Source: Octopus vulgaris
Lineage: Eukaryota
Direction: 5' to 3'
Length of the DNA: 64,000 nucleotides
Assembly (NCBI GenBank): GCA_951406725.2
Contig: OX597824.1
Span: 17,732,001 to 17,796,000 of the forward strand
A program made the position numbers and the translations under genes. Shown in pieces: positions 8,041-62,519 of the stretch. The notes beneath the pieces were generated by a model. It was not told the DNA's origin and did not search any database. It was given only the letters and a program-made list of their open reading frames with translations. The first letter of the stretch is position 1. Each line of letters begins with the position of its first letter.

Positions 8041-8422
8041 TTCCAAGAAGCAATGAATTTATAAAGTGAAAACAAATAAATAAATAAATAAACGAACAGA
8101 AACGCTAATTAGAGAAGAGTGACCAATTTCCTTCCTTCACATGGTGCCAGTCTAGAAAGGAAGCGAAATAATTAAGCAGGTAGTTTTCAACGCTTTGGAA
8201 CACTCGAAGAATATCTCAAAGTTCTAGAGATAACCTGATTATGTTTCGTCTACAGAAATATCGAATTTTATTTATACTTATTGACTTAAGGAGTAATTCA
8301 CACAAACAAAATAAATACATGTATAGATTTTGAATTATAGCAAATCAAATATATTACCCAATATTGATTTTATCAAACACATAATGGTGAAAGGGCAAAT
8401 TCAATTTTTATATGGTTTGGAA

Positions 8423-8865
8423 AGCGGTGAGCTGGCGGAAAAGGTTAGCATGCCGGGTGAAATGCTTAGCGGTATTTCGACTGTCTTTACGTTCTGAGTT
8501 CAAATTCCGCCGAGGTCGACTTTGCCTTTCATCCTTTCGGGGTCGATAAATTAAGTACCAGTTACGCACTGGGGGTCGATGTAATCGACTTAATCCGTTT
8601 GTCTGTCCTTGTTTGTCCTCTCTGTGTTTAGCCCCTTGTGGGTAGTAAAGAAATAGGTATTTCGTCTGCCGTTACGTTCTGAGTTCAAATTCCGCCGAGG
8701 TCGACTTTGCCTTTCATCCTTTCGGGGTCGATAAATTAAGTACCAGTTACGGACTGGAGTCAATATAATCGACTTAATCCGTTTGTCTCTCCTTGTTTGT
8801 CCTCTCTGCGGTGCTCCAGCATGGCCGCAATCAAATGACTGAAAGAGATAAAAGAATAAAAGAAA
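8423..8865 (+). mobile_element. SINE family A dimer ending in a family B 3' tail
   Basis: Two tandem copies of ttctgagttcaaattccgccgaggtcgactttgcctttcatcctttcggggtcgataaattaagtaccag, then gcggtgctccagcatggccgca...actgaaagagataaaag. Confidence 0.9.
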
Positions 8866-9046
8866 CATATATACATATGTACGTACAGGGAGGGAAACAG
8901 AATTTACATTGATAAACACGTACAAACATACATATACATACACACACATACACAGATATATGTATATACATACATATATACATGTATAGATGTGTACGTG
9001 TGTGTACATATATACAAATATATATACATATAAGATATATATATAT

Positions 9047-9107
<61 letters not shown>

Positions 9108-9114
9108 CGTATAT

Positions 9115-9312
9115 ATTTCTATTTGTGTGTTTGTATGCATGTATGTGGATTTCTATGTAATTATCTGCTGTGAGCTTCTTTCTTCATCGCTATGTTCTAC
9201 TCTATCTATGCAAATATATTTTCAAACACGTTTCTAGAAATACAACAATTAACTTATAAGTGAAATTAGTTCTTCTCTTTGCACACAAGCCCATCGACAC
9301 ACACAGGCACTC
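9115..9312 (+). repeat. Direct repeat copy 1 (~198 bp) flanking the satellite-LTR cassette
   Basis: Aligns without gaps to 16321-16518 (offset 7206), about 12 mismatches by eye. Confidence 0.92.
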
Positions 9313-9377
9313 ACACGTACTCACACATATGCACGCACACACACGTATGTGTGTGAGCTGCAAAACACAAAACTCTC

Positions 9378-12300
9378 TTGTTAACAGTTGATCGAATTTT
9401 TGCTAGTGGAGAGTTGATCGAATTTGCACAAGTAGACGGTTGATCGAATTTTCGCTAGTGAACACTTGATCGAATTTTGGCTAGTGGACAGTTGATTGAA
9501 TTTGCACAAGAGGACAATTGATCGAATTTGCACAAGCAGACAGTTGATCGAATTTGCACAAAAGAACAGTTGATCGAATTTGCACAAGTGGACAGTTGAT
9601 TGAATATTCAATAGTGGACAGTTGATCGAATTTGCACCAGTGGACAGTTGATCGAATTTTAGCTAGTTGATCGAATTTTCACCATTGTACAGTTGATAGA
9701 ATTTTCGCGATTTGGACAGTTGATCGAATTTTCGCTAGTGGACAATTGATCGAATTTGCACGAGTGGACAGTTGATCGAATATTCAATAGAGAACAGTTG
9801 ATCGAATTTGCACCAGTGGACAGTTGATCGAATTTTTGCTAATAGACAGTCGATCGAATTTTAGCTAGTGGACAGTTGATCGAATTTTCGCGAGTGGACA
9901 GTTGAACGAATTTTCGCTCGTGGACATTTAATCGAATTTGCACAAGTAGACAGTTGATCGAATATTCGCTAGTGGACAGTTGATCGAATTTGCACAAGTG
10001 GACAGGTGATCGAATTTTAGCTAATGGACAGTTAATCGAATTTTCACCAGTGGACAGTTGATCGAATTTTCGCTAGTGGACAGTTGATCGAATTTTCACG
10101 AGTGGACACTTGATAGAATTTTCGCTAGTGGACAGTTGATCGAATTTTCACTTGTGAACAATTGATCGAATTTGCACAAAAGGACAGTTGATCGAATTTG
10201 CACAAGTGGACAGTTGATTCAATATTCAATAGTGGACAGTTGATCGAATTTGCACCAGTGGACAGTTGATCGAATTTTCGCTAGTGGACAGTTGATCGAA
10301 TTTCCACCAATGGAGAGTAGATCGAATTTTAGCTGGGGGACAGTTGATCGAATATTCACCAGTGGACAGTGATCGAATTTTCGCTTGTGAACAATTGATC
10401 GAATTTGGACAAGTGGACAGTTGATCGAATTTACACGAGTGGTCAGTTGATCGAATTTTCGCTAGTGGACAGTTGATCGAATTTTCGCTAGTGGACGTTT
10501 GATCGAATTTGGACAAGTGGACAATTGATCGAATTTGAACAAGTGGACAGTTGATCGAATTTGCACAACTGAACAGTTGATCGAATAACCAATAGTGGAC
10601 AGTTGATCGAATAACCAATAGTGGACAGTTGATCGAATAACCAATAGTGGACAGTTGATCGAATTTCATACCAATGGACAATTGATCGAATTTCAGCTGG
10701 GGGACAGTTGATCGAATTTTCACCGGTGGACAGTGATCGAATTTTCAATTATAAACAATTGATCGAATTTGGACAAGTGGACAGTTGATCGAATTTACAC
10801 AAGTAGTCAGTTGATCGAATTTCCACCAATGGACAGTTGATCGCATTTTAGCTGGAGGACAGTTGATCGAATTTTCACCAGTGGACAGTTGATCGAATTT
10901 TCGCTAGTGGACAGTTGATCGAATTTTCGCTAGTGGACGTTTGATCGAATTTGCACAAGTGGACAATTGATCGAATTTGCACGAGTGGACAGTTGATCGA
11001 ATATTCAATAGTGGACAGTTGATCGAATTTGCACCAGTGGACAGTTGGTCGAATTTTAGCTAGGGGACAGTTGATTGAATTTGCACAAGTGGACAGTTGA
11101 TCGAATTTTCGCGATGTGGACAGTTGATCGAATTTTCCCTAGTGGACGTATGATCGAATTTGCACAAGTGGACAATTGATCGAATTTGTACAAGTAGACA
11201 GTTGATCGAATTTGCACAAGTGGACAATTGATCGAATATTCGCTAGTGGACAGTTGATCGAATTTGCACCAGTGGACAGTTGATCGAATTTTAGCTAATG
11301 GACAGTTGATCGAATTTTCACCAGTGGACAGTTGATCGAATTTTCGCTTGTGAACAATTGATCGAATTTGCACAGGTGGACAGTTGATCGAATTTTCACT
11401 TGTGAACAATTGATCGAATTTGCACAAGTGGACAGTTGATCGAATATTCAACAGTGGACAGTTGATCGAATTTGCACCAGTGGACAGTTGATAGAATTTT
11501 TGCTGATGGACAGTTGATCGAATTTTAACCAGTGGACAGTTGATCGAATTTTCGGTAGTGAACAGTTGATCGAATTTTCGCTAGTGTACAGTTGATGGAA
11601 TTTGTACCAGTGGACAGTTGATGGAATTTGTACCAGTGGACAGTTGATCGAATTTGCACAAGTGGACAGTTGATCGAATATTCAATAGTGGATAGTTGAT
11701 CGAATTTGCACCAGTGGACAGTTGATCAAATTTTAGCTGGGGGACAGTTGATCGAATTTTTGCTAGTGGACTTTTTATCGAATTTGCACAAGTGGACAAT
11801 TGATCGAATTTGTACAAGTGGACTGTTGATCGAATTTGCACAGGTGGACAGTTGATCGAATATTCACTAGTGGACAGTTGATCGAATTTTTACCAGTGGA
11901 CAGTTGATCGAATTTTCGCTTTTTAACAATTGATCGAATTTGTACAAGTGGATAGTTGATCGAATTTGCACAAGTGGACAGTTGATCAAATTTACACAAG
12001 TGGTCAGTTGATCGAATATTCGCTAGTGGACAGTTGATCGAATTTGCACCAGTGGACAGTTGATCGAATTTTCTCGATGTGTACAGTTGATCGAATTTTC
12101 GCTAGTGGACGTTTGATCGAATTTGCACAAGTGGTAAATTGATCGAATTTGTACAAGTGGCCAGTTGATCGAATATTCGATAGTGGACAGTTGATCGAAC
12201 TTGCACCAGTGGACAGTTGATCGAATTTTAGCTAATGGCCAGTTGACCGAATTTTCACCAGTGGACAGTAGATCGAATATTCGCTAGTGGAATATTCGCA

Positions 12301-14610
12301 GTGGACAGTTCATTGAATTTAAGCTAATTGACAGTTGATCGAATTTCCACCAATGGACAGTTGATCGAATTTTAGCTGGGGGACAGTTGATCGAATTTTC
12401 ACCAGTTGACAGTTGATCGAATTTTCGCTAGTGGACAGTTGATCGAATTTTCGCTAGAGGACAATTGATCGAATTTGCACAAGTGGGCAGTTGATCGAAT
12501 TTGCAGAATTGGACAGTTGATCGAATTTACACAAGTGGTCAGTTGATCGAATATTCGCTAGTGGTCAGTTGATCGAATTTGCACCAGTGGACAGTTCATT
12601 GAATTTAAGCTAATTGACAGTTGATCGAATTTTCACAAGTGGACAGTTGATCGAAATTTCGCTTGTGGACAATTGATCGAATTTTCGCTTGTGAACAATT
12701 GATCGAATTTGCACAAGTGGATAGTTGATCGAATTTACACAAGTGGACAGTTGATCGAATAATCAATAGTGGACAGTTGATAGAATTTCCACCAATGGAC
12801 AGTTGATCGAATTTTAGCTGGGGGACAGATGATCGAATTTTCACCAGTGGACAGTTGATCGAATTTTCGCTAGTGGACAGTTGATCGAATTTTCGCTAGT
12901 GGACAATTGATCGAATTTGCACAAGTGGACAGTTGATCGAATTTGCAAAAGTGGACAGTTGAACAAATTTACACAAGTGGTCAGTTGATCGAATATTCGC
13001 TAGTGGACAGTTGATCGAATTTGCACCAGTGGACAGTTCATTGAATTTAAGCTAATTGACAGATGATCGAAATTTCGCTTGTGGACAAATGATCGAATTT
13101 TCTCTTGTGAACAATTGATCGAATTTGCACAAGTGGATAGTTGATCGAATTTGCACAAGTGGACAGTTGATCGAATTTGCACAAGTGAACAGTTGATCGA
13201 ATAATCAATAGTGGACAGTTGATCGAATTTCCACCAATGGACAGTTGATCGAATTTTAGCTGGGGGACAGTTGATCGAATTTTCACCAGTGGACAGTTGA
13301 TCGAATTTTCGCTTGTGGACAGTTGATCGAATTTTCGCTAGTGGACAATTGATCGAATTTGCACAAGTGGACAGTTGATCGAATTTGCACAAGTGGACAG
13401 TTGATCAAATTTACACAAGTGGTCAGTTGATCGAATATTCGCTAGTGGACAGTTGATCGAATTTGCACCAGTGGACAGTTGATCGAATTTTCGCGATGTG
13501 GACAGTTGATCGAATTTTCTCTAGTGGACGTTTGATCGAATTTGCACAAGTGGACAATTGATCGTATTTGTACAAGTGGACAGTTGATCGAATTTGCACA
13601 AGTGGACAGTTGATCGAACTTGCACCAGTGGACAGTTGATCGAATTTTAGCTAATGGACAGTTGATCGAATTTTCACCAGTGGAAAGTAGATCGAATATT
13701 CGCTAGTGGACAGTTGATCGAATTTCCACCAATGGACAGTTGGTCGATTTTTAGCTGGGGGACAGTTGATCGAATTTTCACCAGTGATCAGTTTATCGAA
13801 TTTTCGCTAGTGGACAGTTCATCGAATTTTCGCTAGAGGACAATTGATCGAATTTGCACAAGTGGACAGTTGATCGAATTTGCAGAAGTGGACAGTTGAT
13901 CGAATTTTACACAAGTGGTCAGTTGATCGAATATTCGCTAGTGGACAGTTGATCGAATTTTCGCTTGTGGACAATTGATCGAATTTGCACAAGTGGACAG
14001 TTGATCGAATATTCAATAGTGGACAGTTGATCGAATTTTCACCAGTGGACAGTTGATCGAATTTTAGCTTGCGGACAGTTGATCGAATCTTCACCAGTGG
14101 ACAGTTGATCGAATTTTCGCTAGTGGACAGTTGATCGAATTTTCGCTAGTTGACAATTGATCGAATTTGCTTTAGTGGACAGTTGATCGAATATTCAATA
14201 GTGGACAGTTGATCGAATTTGCACCAGTGGAGAGTTGATCGAATTTTAGCTTGTGGACTGTTCATCGAATTTGCACCAGTGGACAGTTGATCGAAGTTTT
14301 TCTAATGGACAGTTGATCGAATTTTCGCAGTGGACATTTGGTCGAATTTGCACAAGTGGACAGTTGATCGAATTTACAGAATTGGTCAGTTGATCGAATA
14401 TTCGCTAGTGGACAGTTGATGGAATTTGCACCAGTGGACAGTTGATCGAATTTTAGCTAATGGACAGTTGATCGAATTTTCGCTAGTGGACAGTTGATTG
14501 AATTTTCCCTAGTGGACCTTTGATAGAATTTTCGCTAGTGGACAGTTGACTTAATTTTCAGTTGTGGACACTTGAGCGAATTTTCACAAGTGGACAGTTC
14601 ATCGAATTTG
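9378..14610. repeat. 26-bp tandem satellite/minisatellite array (~200 units) with higher-order structure
   Basis: Unit GTGGACAGTTGATCGAAT plus a variable 8-mer (ttgcacaa, ttgcacca, tttcgcta, tttcacca, attcaata, attcgcta...). Rare variants recur at 286 bp (11x26) and 442 bp (17x26) spacing. Confidence 0.97.
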
Positions 14611-14615
14611 CTCCC

Positions 14616-14747
14616 TGTTATGTCGTACATTCGGATTCTTTCTACTCAACTCGACTCCTCTCTACACCTCTCTCACATTTAGACCTCTCCCTCTATATCT
14701 ACGTAATAGGATAGCTTATTTCATCGTCTGGTGGCGTCCACACAACA
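14616..14747 (-). repeat. 3' LTR
   Basis: tgttatgtcg...ccacacaaca; adjacent to the polypurine tract; about 78% identical to 16164-16295. Confidence 0.88.
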
Positions 14748-14759
14748 CCTCCACCTTTT

Positions 14760-15200
14760 GAGTTTTTAAATCCTGAATTAATCAATTTTATTTCCTCTGT
14801 GAGAAACCGGCATATCTTTTTTCTCTTAGCGTTAATTTCCATCATTTCTGTAGATTTTCTCTTCCTGTTCGACCTACGTGTCGGTTCTGCTTTTGCTTGT
14901 GGTTCTGGGTCCTCGAACACTTTTTCTTGTGGTTCTGGGACCTGGAACAAATCATACCATAAATCTATTCTTCTCGTCTCTCTTGGTTTTTGGTATATCT
15001 TTTTTTAATTGGTTTAAATCCATTCTGTGTTCATATTTTGGTCCTTTTACCATGTACATCACGTTACCCAGACGTCCAGTTACACTTCCTTCTTCCCTGT
15101 CCTGTTTTCTGTTACTATATATTTTAAAATACTCTTTGTCACCTGTATTTTTAAAAAAATCATTTTTCTTCCCTATTTTCTGCTCGGCAACCATTTGTCA
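14760..15200 (-). pseudogene. Frameshifted integrase C-terminal remnant of the Gypsy pol
   Basis: GSVTGRLGNVMYMVKGPKYEHRMDLNQLKK and PTRRSNRKRK resemble the C-terminal SH3-like region and RRSxR motif of Mag-type integrases. Confidence 0.65.
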
Positions 15201-15383
15201 GAAATAAAACGATAAAGATAAAACAGGTTTTAACTTTAAAGGGGTAATCTTTCCTCAAATGTCGATCTCCGCAACCGTAGCACTGTTTTGAATTAAAATT
15301 TTTCCATCTTTCTGTACTCTCTTTACACATTTGTACATTATTATTCTTGTCTTCTGTCTTTCTTGTTTCATCGTGGAGGTCTA

Positions 15384-16022
15384 TTATTTGTTGACATTCC
15401 TAAGCCACATTCTGCAAATGAGTTTCACATCTTGATTCAACTTTGATAAAATTCTTTTTCTAATTTCCGCGTCTTCCGTTGCCACTAGCCGTTTAACGAA
15501 TATTAAGTACTTGAACATATCTGGCGTTAATTCTTCCAGCTTAAACATTTCGCTAGCCTTATTAACCATACCGGCATATGTTAAGATATCATCGGGCTCG
15601 TTTCTCTTTAAATTTAAACATTCCCATCGAATATTAAACAGCGAAAGTTTCTCGCTAAAAATATTAGTCAAAATATTTATCGTTTCATCAAAACACATTT
15701 CCGCGGGCTTTCTCGGCAAAATAAAGTTACAAAATCTTTCGTGTTCCGGATTAGCAATATTTTGCAAAAGGAGCCTTACCTTCCTTTCACTAGGCCATCC
15801 TCTGCATTCCTCTCGGAATATGTCTTCGTATCGTCTGTAATATGCAGCAAACGTAATTTCTTCATCCGGATTGTAGTGAAATTCTTCGATGGAATTTGCA
15901 ATACCATCTGCTGAAAATGATTCTACCGTTTTTCTCGACTGCAGTAACAATTCTATTAAATTCTGTAGTTGTTGTTGCTGCTGCTGTTGTTGTTTTACAA
16001 CTGCTTTCAGTAACTCTTCCAT
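15384..16022 (-). CDS. gag: Gag-like protein of a Mag/Gypsy element (212 aa from MEELL; frameshifted near its end)
   Basis: Poly-Q N-terminus, then IEEFHYNPDEEITFAAYYRRYEDIF...KVRLLL...FCNFILP...LFNIRWECLNL...YAGMVN...FKYLIFV, typical of invertebrate Mag-clade Gag; lies just downstream of the PBS. Confidence 0.8.
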   Translation of the reverse strand: MEELLKAVVKQQQQQQQQLQNLIELLLQSRKTVESFSADGIANSIEEFHYNPDEEITFAAYYRRYEDIFREECRGWPSERKVRLLLQNIANPEHERFCNFILPRKPAEMCFDETINILTNIFSEKLSLFNIRWECLNLKRNEPDDILTYAGMVNKASEMFKLEELTPDMFKYLIFVKRLVATEDAEIRKRILSKLNQDVKLICRMWLRNVNK

Positions 16023-16039
16023 TTCGGTACTATTCGAAA

Positions 16040-16163
16040 CCTCGTCACCACTGTTATATCGCAAGACTACACAATGGCTGTGTGAGCTACGAATTCCTCG
16101 TCGCCACTCTTATATCGCAATACTACACAGTGGCTGTGTGAGCTACGAAATCCTCGTCGCCCT
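16040..16163 (-). promoter_or_regulatory. Three primer binding site copies (tRNA-Ser GCT type) in a 56-bp tandem repeat
   Basis: Plus-strand cctcgtc(a/g)cc at 16040, 16096 and 16152; minus-strand TGGCGACGAGGA is complementary to the metazoan tRNA-Ser(GCT) 3' end ...TCCTCGTCGCCA. Confidence 0.75.
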
Positions 16164-16295
16164 CGTCATGTCGCACGTTCAGATGCCTTCTACTCAACTC
16201 GACTCCTCTCTACTCGTCTCTCATGTCTAAGCTTCTCCCAAGATATCTACATATTGGACTAGACTACTTCATCGTCTGGGGGCCTCCACAAAACA
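16164..16295 (-). repeat. 5' LTR
   Basis: Colinear and gap-free with 14616-14747; followed on the minus strand by the PBS. Confidence 0.88.
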
Positions 16296-16320
16296 CTCTT
16301 GTGAACAGTTGATCGAATCA

Positions 16321-16518
16321 ATTTCTGTTTGTGTGTTTGTATGCATGTATGTGGGTTTCTATGTAATTATCTGCTGTGAGCTTCTTTCTTCATCGTTATG
16401 TTCTACTCTATCTATGCATATACATTTTCAAACACGTTTCTAGAAATACATCCATTAACTTAGAAGTGAAATTAGTTATTCTCTTTGCACACAAGCCCAT
16501 CGACATACACATGCATTC
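16321..16518 (+). repeat. Direct repeat copy 2 (~198 bp)
   Basis: Matches 9115-9312. Confidence 0.92.
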
Positions 16519-17069
16519 GTGTGTGTGCGTGCATATGTGTGTGTGTATGTATTCTTCACTGCTTTCTTCTCTGTATCCAGTATTAGTTTTCCTACCGTTA
16601 TATTTTTCTTTTTACTCTTTGAGGAACATGTCAGACTCATTTCTTTTTCTAGCAATTTCTAACTTCAACCCCATCTCACAGACTCACGGACGCACAAATT
16701 TGTTTGCATGTATTCTGCTGTAAAAACAGAATAAAATAACAGAAAAACAAATTGAAAGAGCGAAGCATGTAAAAGAACTTTCCATGCGGCTCATTTTACG
16801 TAAGAAACTCATTATATATCTAACTACAACCATATGCTTCATATGACCTGAACGACGGAGAAAGATCTTTTTTCGGGTAATCTAGGAAGCAGAAGTTATG
16901 TGAAGAATTGCATCGCTGCTGAACCTTGCACATTACTGTGGACAAGGAGTCTTGTTTACAGATTTTGTGTAAATAAATTGTGTAGAAGCATGAAGTTATT
17001 TCAACATGCATGTTTGTACTCCAGTATAATATGGTGTAATTACTTGTACAGATTTATATATATATATAA

Positions 17070-17105
<36 letters not shown>

Positions 17106-17320
17106 ATTTATATATAGTGAGAGAGAGAGAGGGAAACATATATTTATTTGTATATATGTATCTATATTTATATTGATATATATATATTAAAAAAAAAATA
17201 TATATATGCATATCCATCTCTCTCTCTCTCTCGCTATATATATATACCTATATATACATATGTATTTATATATATATATTTGTATATATCAACATTTATA
17301 TATATTTCTTTATATCTATC

Positions 17321-17379
<59 letters not shown>

Positions 17380-17401
17380 AAATATATATTATATATACAT
17401 A

Positions 17402-17442
<41 letters not shown>

Positions 17443-17528
17443 TACACGTAGATAATAAAACGTAAGCTATGTTATATACATTCAGACAGACACACATGTA
17501 TGTATGTACATACGTATATCTATACATG

Positions 17529-31261: not shown

Positions 31262-31590
31262 TCTTTTGCTCTTTTACTCTTTTACTTGTTTCAGTCATTT
31301 GACAGTCGCCATGCTGGAGCAGCGCCTCTAGTCGAGCCCATCGACCCCAGGACTTATTCTTTGTAAGCCTAGTACTTATTCTATCGGTCTCGACAGTCGC
31401 CATGCTGGAGCAGCGCCTCTAGTCGAGCCCATCGACCCCAGGACTTATTCTTTGTAAGCCTAGTACTTATTCTATCGGTCTCTTTTGCGGAACCGCTAAG
31501 TTACGGGGACATATACACACCGGCATCGGTTGTCAAGCGATGTTGGAGGGACAACCACAGACACACAAACGTATACCCACACAAAGATAC
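31262..31590 (-). mobile_element. SINE family B 3' half with an internal 91-bp tandem duplication
   Basis: 31301-31391 is repeated exactly at 31392-31482. Confidence 0.9.
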
Positions 31591-61389: not shown

Positions 61390-62058
61390 GGCGGTGAGCT
61401 GGCAGAAACGTTAGCACGCCGGGTGAAATGTTTAGCGGTATTTCGTCTGCCGTTACGTTGTGAGTTCAAATTCCGCCGAGGTCGACTTTGCCTTTCATCC
61501 TTTCGGGGTCGATAAATTAAGTACCAGTTACGCACTGGGGTCGATGTAATCGACTTAATACTTATGTCTGTCCTTGTTTGTCCCCTCTGTGTTTGTCCCC
61601 CCTTGTTTGTCCCCTCTGTGTTTGTCCCCCCTTGTGGGTAATAAAGAAATAGGTATTTCTTCTGGAGCTTCGTTCTGAGTTCAATTTCCGCCGTGGTCGA
61701 CTTTGCCTTTCATCCTTTCGCGGTCGATAAATTAAGTACCCGTTACGCACTGGGGTCGATGTAATCAACTTAATCTCTTTGTCTTTCATTGTTTGTCCTC
61801 TCTGTGTTTAGCCCCTTGTGGGCAAGAAAGAAATAAGAAATGTTTGCACGCCGAGCGAAATGCTTAGCGGTATTTCGTCTGCTAAGACGTTCTGAGTTCA
61901 AATTCCGCCGAGGTCGACTTGGCCTGTCATCCTTTCGATTAAATCGATTAAATAAGTACCAGTTGCGCACTAGGGTCGATATAATCGACTTAATCCGTTT
62001 GTCTGTCCTTGTTTGTCCCTTCTGTGTTTAGCCTCTTGTGGGTAGTAAAGAAATAGAA
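61390..62058 (+). mobile_element. SINE family A trimer
   Basis: Three tandem units, with internal tttgtcccc micro-duplications at 61578-61632. Confidence 0.92.
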
Positions 62059-62519
62059 ATATATTATGACTTCACCCTTCAGAATTTTGGGGTCTATAAA
62101 ATATACATTTTTCTGACTCTGAGATCGATGTCACGTCAAAATTGCTGGCCTTGTACCAAATGTAGAGAGATACTCTCTTCTTTTTTACTTGTAAACTTCT
62201 GTCTTTCGCTTTTGCTTTTTACTTTTAGTGTATTGTGTCCTGTTATTCAGTTAATTTATATATTTTTATATTACATTAAATCATACTTTCTAATTTAGCT
62301 TTAAGACCTGTTATTACGAGGTGAGGGAATTAGTCAATGCACTCGACACAAATTTACTAATCAAGAAAAATAATTTCATGTGTGGATCTTGGAAGGGTAA
62401 AAACTAATGTTGAAATTACCGTGGCTCTGCATCTATAATATACAGAACTAAAACAAAATACACGACAAATTGTAAGTTTGAACTTTATAGACATTTAGTG
62501 TGGAATCACAAAATAAAGG

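What the first reader, a model, noticed from the sequence alone, without database searches (positions are those of the whole stretch)
9115..16518. A ~7-kb satellite + LTR-retroelement cassette with terminal redundancy, bracketed by ~198-bp direct repeats
Seen: 9115-9312 and 16321-16518 are direct repeats (about 12 mismatches, ~94%) bracketing the array plus Gypsy element. The cassette starts at 9366-9397 with cacaaaactctcttgttaacagttgatcgaat and ends at 16287-16318 with cacaaaacactcttgtgaacagttgatcgaat. So the same LTR-terminus/satellite junction (30/32 identical) lies at both ends, although no LTR is present at the left. The flanking repeats are much less diverged than the LTR pair (~78%). 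Inference: the satellite and the gag-bearing element arrived here together as one pre-assembled unit, from a circle or a tandem macro-array of [satellite+element]. This would be a composite mobile satellite rather than an LTR insertion at this locus.
Basis: partly seen in the sequence, partly recalled or inferred. Interest (0 to 1): 0.78.

Follow-up and report, generated by a model that had tools for sequence, protein, structure and literature searches.

The report
Retrotransposon-tagged satellite block copied between loci
An old retrotransposon sitting inside one unit of a 26-base tandem repeat is found, at the identical site, in three places of this animal genome, and the 7-kb copy here was likely pasted in as one DNA block by a replication-repair accident, which makes the retrotransposon a natural tag for how such repeat arrays spread between chromosomes.

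Summary
The 198-bp repeats differ at 12 of 198 positions and were found nowhere else in the assembly. The junction 32-mers match at 30 of 32. The right junction is held unchanged in contigs of three runs. The element is a pol-less Ty3/Gypsy (Mag-like) copy from a large family with non-specific 5-bp target duplications. It sits in register inside one satellite unit. The same insertion (same site, same target duplication) occurs at two other loci, 3 of 21 array loci examined. 3' LTRs group with 3' LTRs and 5' with 5', so one old insertion was later copied as DNA with its satellite. The left 'terminal redundancy' is one of three short templated pieces, one inverted, all copied from within ~420 bp of the right junction. 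With the 198-bp duplication, this is the signature of template-switch (FoSTeS/MMBIR-like) insertion, described for human segmental duplications. So 'arrived pre-assembled' is supported; 'composite mobile satellite' is not: the three copies share no ends and no mobilising enzyme is present. A circular donor is allowed but not shown (unit-order test negative). The donor and the empty allele were not found; the left junction lacks independent read support.

The parts
9115..9312 (+). Left copy of the 198-bp host segment (target-side duplication)
   Evidence: 12 of 198 differences to 16321-16518; only these two copies found in the genome
9313..9345 (-). Templated piece 1: inverted copy of 16518-16550, the host sequence just after the right repeat
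   Evidence: 29 of 33, best match in the window on either strand; next best 27 of 33 in CA microsatellites, so low-complexity but best
9350..9365 (+). Templated piece 2: copy of the element's 56-bp leader repeat (16135-16150)
   Evidence: 14 of 16, best match in the window; in 1,179,430 positions of held DNA the only hits at >=14/16 not flagged as element were this junction itself (5 overlapping records) and one diverged element leader
9366..9397 (+). Templated piece 3 ('terminal redundancy'): last 9 bp of the 5' LTR + target duplication CTCTT + satellite, copy of 16287-16318; runs into the array
   Evidence: 30 of 32; carries the LTR-end allele shared only by the window 5' LTR and the C15 copy and the window-type CTCTT, not C15's CTCTC; junction unique in the assembly
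9384..14615 (+). 26-bp satellite array, ~200 units, with later internal duplications of 17, 34 and 54 units
14611..14615 (+). Left copy of the 5-bp LTR target duplication (CTCCC; CTCTC at the two other loci)
   Evidence: sequence
14616..14747 (-). 3' LTR, 132 bp, TG...CA; polypurine tract adjoins at 14748-14759
   Evidence: sister of the C11:21.75 Mb LTR, support 96/89
15384..16109 (-). gag-like reading frame, 241 aa stop to stop; no pol in this copy
   Evidence: DUF7083 E=1.3e-19, three other frames no family; a longer family copy carries RVT_1
16035..16175 (-). 2.5 copies of a 56-bp leader repeat, each with a primer-binding-site-like motif
   Evidence: also in other family copies
16164..16295 (-). 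5' LTR (inner end decayed)
   Evidence: sister of the right part of the C15 LTR, support 95/86
16296..16318 (+). Right target duplication (CTCTT) and the remainder of the interrupted satellite unit; the block ends here
   Evidence: spacing in register (corrected for a one-base offset); contigs of 3 runs
16321..16518 (+). Right copy of the 198-bp host segment, followed by the source (16518-16550) of the inverted piece

Best explanation
A pol-less Ty3/Gypsy element sits in register inside one unit of a 26-bp satellite, the same insertion is present at three loci, and the block here was likely copied in as DNA by a replication-repair event with several template switches (FoSTeS/MMBIR-like). Steps. 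(1, shown) One integrase-type insertion with a 5-bp target duplication into a satellite unit. (2, shown by trees and shared alleles) After its two LTRs had diverged, the insertion was duplicated with flanking satellite; descendants are this window (whole element), C11:21.75 Mb (3 units + 3' LTR + 1.16 kb) and C15:34.33 Mb (recombined single LTR with satellite on both sides, later split by a ~1.9-kb insertion). (3, inferred) At this locus a broken or stalled end after the 198-bp segment first copied ~33 bp of the neighbouring host DNA backwards, then 16 bp of the donor's leader, then the donor's LTR-end/satellite junction, passed by satellite homology into the array, copied array and element up to the same junction, and returned to the host 198 bp upstream, duplicating that segment. 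(4, shown) The array later grew by internal duplications. The block is a passenger with no mobility of its own. Whether the donor was linear (a backward switch between satellite units) or a circle closed between such units cannot be told; C15 is the best but unproven candidate for the original insertion site.
For: Same junction at exactly three loci: 3 of 7 pattern hits (0-1 mismatch) have satellite, the 4 two-mismatch hits have none; right-junction pattern 2 of 3 hits; only C15 matches through the satellite among 40 scored of 964 LTR candidates. The family has no site preference: 13 different perfect 5-bp duplications, none CTCTC. Window + C11:21.75 Mb clade 100/98 (20 rows) and 100/97 (9 rows); 3' LTRs 96/89, window 5' LTR + C15 right part 95/86, 35 rows; C15 left part has the 3'-type allele seen in 3 of 33 LTRs. 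Left junction = three pieces all from 16135-16550, unique in the assembly. The homology of the 198-bp pair starts 2 bp from the block's right end, as a target duplication predicts. Its divergence (12 of 192 non-CpG) fits the split from the C11:21.75 Mb copy (45 of 1071; p=0.25) and not the LTR pair (23 of 114; p=3e-4). Other arrays behave alike: C10 and C15 arrays share terminal units and ~910 bp of flank at 87%; 2 of 19 other array loci have an inverted copy of flank on both sides vs 0 of 101 control positions, p=0.024. Precedent: PMC9132208 section 8, PMC5120786 passages.
Against: No complete donor and no empty allele were found. Direction of copying is not shown; this locus could be the source of the C11:21.75 Mb fragment. 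Templated pieces 1 and 2 are short and partly CA/TG-rich, and were found after the fact. LTR trees rest on 94-135 columns and the bootstrap had not settled. The window LTRs are about twice as mutated as its interior (3-point branch 0.11-0.12 vs 0.043-0.055), which is unexplained and inflates the LTR-versus-flank age contrast. The internal deletion shared with C11:21.75 Mb also occurs in an unrelated fragment on C23, so it is not a private marker. The left junction has no independent read support.
Confidence: 0.62

Rival explanations
1. Resident block, later patch. Array and element were already here (possibly the original insertion site). A later break at the array's left edge, beside the (TA)n tract, was repaired by invading the lone satellite unit 7 kb away and copying junction, leader, inverted piece and the 198-bp segment. 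The 198-bp pair is then a templated insertion, not a target duplication, and says nothing about arrival.
For: All four left pieces come from one 420-bp zone; the first invasion would be homology-driven; the 12 bases left of the left copy resemble a decayed satellite core at about 7 of 12 (by eye); this is the only complete copy found.
Against: Needs the copying to stop within 2 bp of the satellite|host boundary by coincidence; does not predict that the 198-bp pair dates with the C11:21.75 Mb split; C15 keeps older, more diverged units on both sides of the LTR (25-27% within-array divergence vs 19% here), while only 23 bp remain on the right here.
Confidence: 0.22
2. A true composite mobile element or macro-array: [satellite + element] is a unit with its own ends that is amplified in tandem or transposed repeatedly.
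For: Three loci carry the linkage; satellite arrays are dispersed over 21 loci on 12 contigs; in oyster, non-autonomous Helentrons carry such arrays (PMC7492417 passages). Unassembled macro-arrays cannot be excluded.
Against: 18 of 21 array loci have no element; the three copies end differently; array flanks share no terminal boxes except one pair; Helitrons make no target duplication; no tandem [satellite+element] found.
Confidence: 0.07
3. Independent, target-specific insertions of the LTR family into one satellite motif at three loci.
For: Same phase and target sequence at three loci; satellite units on the LTR side are not colinear beyond the adjacent unit.
Against: 13 unrelated target duplications elsewhere; the target variant is nearly absent from arrays; independent insertions predict 5' and 3' LTRs of one copy as sisters, but they cross-group.
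Confidence: 0.03
4. Assembly artefact (haplotype overlap or misjoin at the array).
For: Long tandem array beside a (TA)n tract; left junction not checked against reads.
Against: The two 198-bp copies differ by 6% with a unique patchwork between them; the right junction is in contigs of three runs from three studies, and those contigs end at 16385 or 16395, exactly where a second copy of the segment would break a k=31 graph (inference).
Confidence: 0.03

Closest known systems
Interspersed segmental duplications flanked by large direct repeats with a complex junction (lcr16a on human chr18; PMC9132208, section 8 read)
   Same: Inserted duplicate bracketed by a direct repeat of host DNA; one junction built of several fragments including an inversion; explained by FoSTeS/MMBIR; a retrotransposon travels as passenger.
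   Different: Repeats there are 4-27 kb, here 198 bp; cargo here is a satellite array; the templated pieces include the insert's own far end, giving terminal redundancy.
Complex chromosomal insertions by FoSTeS/MMBIR (PMC5120786, passages)
   Same: Duplication at the inserting site from switching back upstream; templated insertions from nearby sequence.
   Different: Human clinical, kb-Mb scale, de novo; here an old fixed 7-kb event.
Spread of Rsp-like satellite in Drosophila simulans (bioRxiv 10.1101/846238, passages)
   Same: Dispersed arrays seeded at new loci with complex junctions and junction duplications; eccDNA reintegration, gene conversion and FoSTeS/MMBIR proposed.
   Different: There arrays insert into another satellite and circles were sequenced; here a single LTR insertion marks descent between chromosomes and no circle was observed.
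eccDNA-mediated duplication with permuted order (PMC7188851, passages)
   Same: An LTR-end/satellite junction at the left of the array is what a permuted circle would give.
   Different: The test needs donor and recipient orders; no donor was found, satellite units are not colinear, and the junction is present at both ends.
Ty3/Gypsy Mag-lineage elements (PMC3286476, passages and Table 1); gag-only non-autonomous TR-GAG (PMC4350172, search listing only)
   Same: Short LTRs (119-304 bp there, ~130 here), mostly 5-bp target duplications, tandem repeats in the 5' leader; window copy is gag-only.
   Different: Lineage not tested by an RT tree; primer tRNA not identified.
Cg_HINE satellite-carrying Helentrons of oyster (PMC7492417, passages)
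   Same: Short satellite arrays dispersed over a mollusc-type genome.
   Different: No conserved flanking boxes around these arrays; a 198-bp duplication is present.

Membership tests
Ty3/Gypsy LTR retrotransposon (non-autonomous copy) | Two LTRs with TG...CA ends, PPT, PBS-like motif | tested here: met
   inner end of the 5' LTR is decayed
Ty3/Gypsy LTR retrotransposon (non-autonomous copy) | Integrase-type 4-6 bp target duplication | tested here: met
   CTCCC/CTCTT here, CTCTC/CTCTC at C15; 13 perfect 5-bp duplications in the family
Ty3/Gypsy LTR retrotransposon (non-autonomous copy) | RT of the Ty3/Gypsy type in the family | tested here: met
   Copy L107: RVT_1 E=3.5e-25; 3 PDB matches, 2 of them Ty3-type RT entries, the best an 'enzymatic polyprotein'. 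Absent from the window copy
Mag lineage | RT/RNaseH/integrase phylogeny | not tested
   Only structural resemblance to Table 1 of PMC3286476
Mag lineage | PBS complementary to tRNA-Ser or tRNA-Leu | tested here: inconclusive
   tRNA-Ser link is recalled; one exact-pattern search for a matching tRNA end found 0
FoSTeS/MMBIR-type complex insertion | Duplication at the inserting site | tested here: met
   198-bp pair, unique to the locus; its reading as a target duplication is inferred
FoSTeS/MMBIR-type complex insertion | Templated insertions from near the breakpoints, several switches, inversion | tested here: met
   Three pieces, one inverted
FoSTeS/MMBIR-type complex insertion | Microhomology at switches | tested here: inconclusive
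   TG/CA-rich overlaps and an imperfect satellite-core likeness at the return point, by eye; blurred by ~6% decay
FoSTeS/MMBIR-type complex insertion | Identified donor and empty recipient allele | tested here: inconclusive
   Two sister copies but no complete donor; no empty allele seen
eccDNA-mediated duplication | Circularly permuted order relative to a donor | tested here: inconclusive
   Left junction fits; first two units no closer to C15 post-LTR units than 22% of offsets; no colinearity with other arrays
eccDNA-mediated duplication | Physical circles of the satellite or the block | not testable with these tools
   Needs Circle-seq or outward PCR
Composite transposable element / HINE-type satellite carrier | Conserved termini shared by many copies | tested here: not met
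   three element-bearing copies end differently; array flanks unrelated except one pair
Composite transposable element / HINE-type satellite carrier | No target duplication (Helitron-type) | tested here: not met
   198-bp duplication present; feature per PMC7492417
Target-site-specific LTR element | Family-wide preference for the satellite motif | tested here: not met
   1 of 19 element loci and 1 of 29 LTR loci (the same C11:21.75 Mb copy) adjoin an array

The most novel reading that the evidence does not exclude
The block is a fossil of rolling-circle copying from a satellite-derived DNA circle: recombination between units on either side of the LTR element released a circle, and repair synthesis at this locus went round it once plus 32 bp, writing the LTR-end junction twice. 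With the C10/C15 shared flank and the inverted flank copies at two more arrays, this family would be a genome-wide, naturally tagged record of satellites colonising chromosomes through circles captured at breaks.
Probability: 0.25. Interest if true: 0.7.

Novelty: new member of a known kind. Interest (0 to 1): 0.45.

Why it matters
How short satellite arrays reach new chromosomes is usually argued from repeat similarity alone, because the units hide their own junctions. Here a single retrotransposon insertion acts as a lineage tag: it shows that arrays move as DNA blocks with passengers, gives a relative date, and leaves a readable junction that points to replicative template switching. It makes the circle-versus-linear-donor question testable in one family with outward PCR and comparative assemblies. 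It also warns that an LTR copy can be multiplied without retrotransposition, so LTR-pair age need not date its locus.

Tried and rejected
Unit-order colinearity between the window array and 16 other arrays or array segments of 8 or more units: no better than shuffles, apart from a weak C3 segment (2.5 vs 3.5-4.0, five shuffles); C15 post-LTR units vs the window's first units: not significant. An apparent 39-bp target duplication at the C8:31.5 Mb array is an insertion into another ~90-bp tandem repeat; dropped from the 2 of 19 count. Shared internal deletion as a private marker: also in a C23 fragment outside the clade. Search for a long direct duplication at other arrays: none in 19 loci besides the tandem-embedded one. 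Rest of the C11:21.75 Mb element: not within ~19 kb downstream. Rfam on 8400-17500: 0 matches. Special hairpin in the satellite or the inversion source: z = +1.0, -1.1, -1.6, none significant. tRNA for the PBS: 0 matches. Empty allele: one run of another organism label covers 16553-17040 with 12 differences but shows no listed piece across the junction and no depth at 16404-16485; lack of cover proves nothing. The repeat finder was swamped by the array. Earlier scan notes: none. Literature: no paper on this satellite among 5 hits; 0 hits; these cover only the open library, and no supplements were read.


Full report
Setting. The window is G000:C11:17,732,001-17,796,000 in a 2.8-Gb assembly of 227 contigs. 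From its SINE-like repeats I take it for an octopus-type genome; that is recalled, not tested.

Observation. The 198-bp repeats (9115-9312, 16321-16518) differ at 12 positions without gaps, and the 32-mers agree at 30 of 32. The segment has two genome-wide candidates, both here. The array is 200.6 units of 26 bp at 9384-14609. The LTRs (14616-14747, 16164-16295) differ at 29 of 132. Contigs from 3 of 4 runs laid (three studies, three organism labels; one may be the assembly's source) carry 16186-16385/16395 with no difference. The left junction has no independent read check.

The element. It lies on the minus strand with TG...CA LTRs, a purine tract, a 56-bp leader repeat and a 241-aa frame with DUF7083, and no pol. 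A longer family copy has RVT_1 and matches Ty3-type RT entries. The family is large: 1693 and 1136 first-look candidates, 40 scored each. It makes 5-bp target duplications with no preference: 13 different perfect ones, none CTCTC. Short LTRs, 5-bp duplications and leader repeats resemble the Mag lineage in PMC3286476 (passages and Table 1); lineage was not tested. Here the element interrupts a satellite unit: 8 bases on the left and 9 on the right, less the 5-bp duplication, give 12, the spacing in 99 of 102 units (one search printed 11 because I started the right part one base late). So the right 32-mer is an ordinary LTR end in a satellite unit.

One insertion, three loci. The satellite|LTR junction pattern gave 7 hits (control 3); the three with 0-1 mismatch are this window, C11:21.75 Mb and C15:34.33 Mb, and the other four have no satellite. 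The LTR|satellite pattern gave 3 hits (control 0): this window, C15, and one without satellite. C11:21.75 Mb has three units, the 3' LTR and 1164 bp of interior, then a SINE. C15 has a single LTR with a perfect CTCTC/CTCTC duplication, satellite on both sides, split by a ~1.9-kb insertion. The window and C11:21.75 Mb interiors form a clade (100/98 among 20 rows, 5.3% apart; 100/97 among 9 rows, 4.6%). Among 35 LTR rows the window 3' LTR pairs with the C11:21.75 Mb LTR (96/89) and the window 5' LTR with the right part of the C15 LTR (95/86); the bootstrap had not settled. These two alone end in the AAAACA allele, and the left part of the C15 LTR has a 3'-type allele seen in 3 of 33. Independent insertions would pair the two LTRs of one copy; cross-pairing means DNA-level copying after the LTRs had diverged. 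Against over-reading: the internal deletion also occurs in an unrelated C23 fragment, and satellite units are not colinear beyond the adjacent one.

Relative ages. At non-CpG columns the 198-bp pair differs at 12 of 192, the LTR pair at 23 of 114 (p=3e-4), and the window versus C11:21.75 Mb interior at 45 of 1071 (p=0.25 against the pair). The duplication thus dates with the spread, not with the insertion. Caveat: six other two-LTR copies have 88-96% LTR identity and the window LTRs carry about twice the private change of its interior, so the LTR age is probably inflated; I have no explanation.

The left junction. After the left repeat come an inverted copy of 16518-16550 (29 of 33), a copy of the leader at 16135-16150 (14 of 16) and the 32-mer; each is the best match in the window. 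The 32-mer has the derived LTR-end allele and this copy's CTCTT, so it was copied from this lineage's own right junction. The patchwork is unique in the assembly (1 hit, control 0). All pieces come from a 420-bp zone around the right junction. A flanking direct repeat plus a multi-fragment, partly inverted junction is what PMC9132208 (section 8 read) describes for human segmental duplications and attributes to FoSTeS/MMBIR; PMC5120786 (passages) explains duplications at inserting sites by switching back upstream. Terminal redundancy therefore does not need a circle. A circle would make the passage from the junction into the array seamless, but the units after the left 32-mer are no closer to C15's post-LTR units than 22% of offsets, and no other array is convincingly colinear. 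The array was also reshaped later by 17-, 34- and 54-unit duplications.

The satellite elsewhere. Arrays were confirmed at 20 other loci, 21 in all on 12 contigs; these are lower bounds. Three carry the element. Flanks are unrelated except that the C10:83.49 Mb and C15:34.32 Mb arrays share their last units and ~910 bp of flank at 87%, a second passenger case. Two of 19 other loci have a 168-188-bp inverted copy of flank on both sides, against 0 of 101 control positions (p=0.024; one tandem-embedded array dropped). No conserved boxes like those of oyster HINEs (PMC7492417 passages) were seen. Spread of dispersed satellites by microhomology repair, template switching or circles is proposed in bioRxiv 10.1101/846238 (passages), and permuted duplications via circles in PMC7188851 (passages).

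Verdict. Real, and more informative than a plain LTR insertion, but not a new kind of mobile element. Best reading (0.62): a pre-joined satellite + element block copied in by multi-switch replicative repair with a 198-bp target duplication. Main rival (0.22): a resident block with a later templated patch. A circular donor is a sub-case at about 0.25 overall. Shown: anatomy, common descent of three copies, templated pieces. Inferred: direction, donor, pathway. I found no description of this satellite, which cover only the open library; no supplements were read.

Noticed in passing
L048 (C10:83.49 Mb) and L049 (C15:34.32 Mb), 3' ends of the arrays: Share about six terminal satellite units (one diagnostic 25-bp unit) and ~910 bp of flank at 87%; the shared block appears to end at the terminal inverted repeat of a small mariner-like element (label recalled), so one-ended transposition is a possible carrier.
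   Followed up: partly
L050:1300-6750 (C15:34.328-34.333 Mb): Hub of old, diverged satellite segments in both orientations beside the largest array (~241 units), with a 205-bp inverted flank copy at 78% and the split single LTR; candidate source locus.
   Followed up: partly
L053 (C15:17.79 Mb) and L055 (C5:117.06 Mb): Arrays flanked by inverted copies of 188 bp (96%) and 168 bp (82%) of neighbouring DNA.
   Followed up: partly
L058 (C5:103.7 Mb), L060 (C3:59.89 Mb): Arrays made of segments in opposite orientation.
   Followed up: no
L054 (C8:31.5 Mb): The 26-bp array is inserted in another tandem repeat of about 90 bp.
   Followed up: no
window 16035-16175; L113:6936-7501: The 56-bp leader repeat re-creates LTR-end + primer-site motifs; one family copy has roughly ten copies of it.
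   Followed up: no
window 14616-14747 and 16164-16295: Both LTRs are the most mutated of 34 compared (0.11-0.12 vs median about 0.05), unlike the interior.
   Followed up: partly
L016-L018 (C10:95.26-95.51 Mb); L109-L110 (C29:14.86 Mb): Near-identical element copies at neighbouring places, probably segmental duplicates.
   Followed up: no
L078 and L101: Miniature copies of the family: two LTRs about 260-330 bp apart with perfect 5-bp duplications.
   Followed up: no
window 31301-31482 and 61404-62060: A perfect 91-bp tandem duplication and a three-copy ~215-bp tandem of SINE-like sequence.
   Followed up: no
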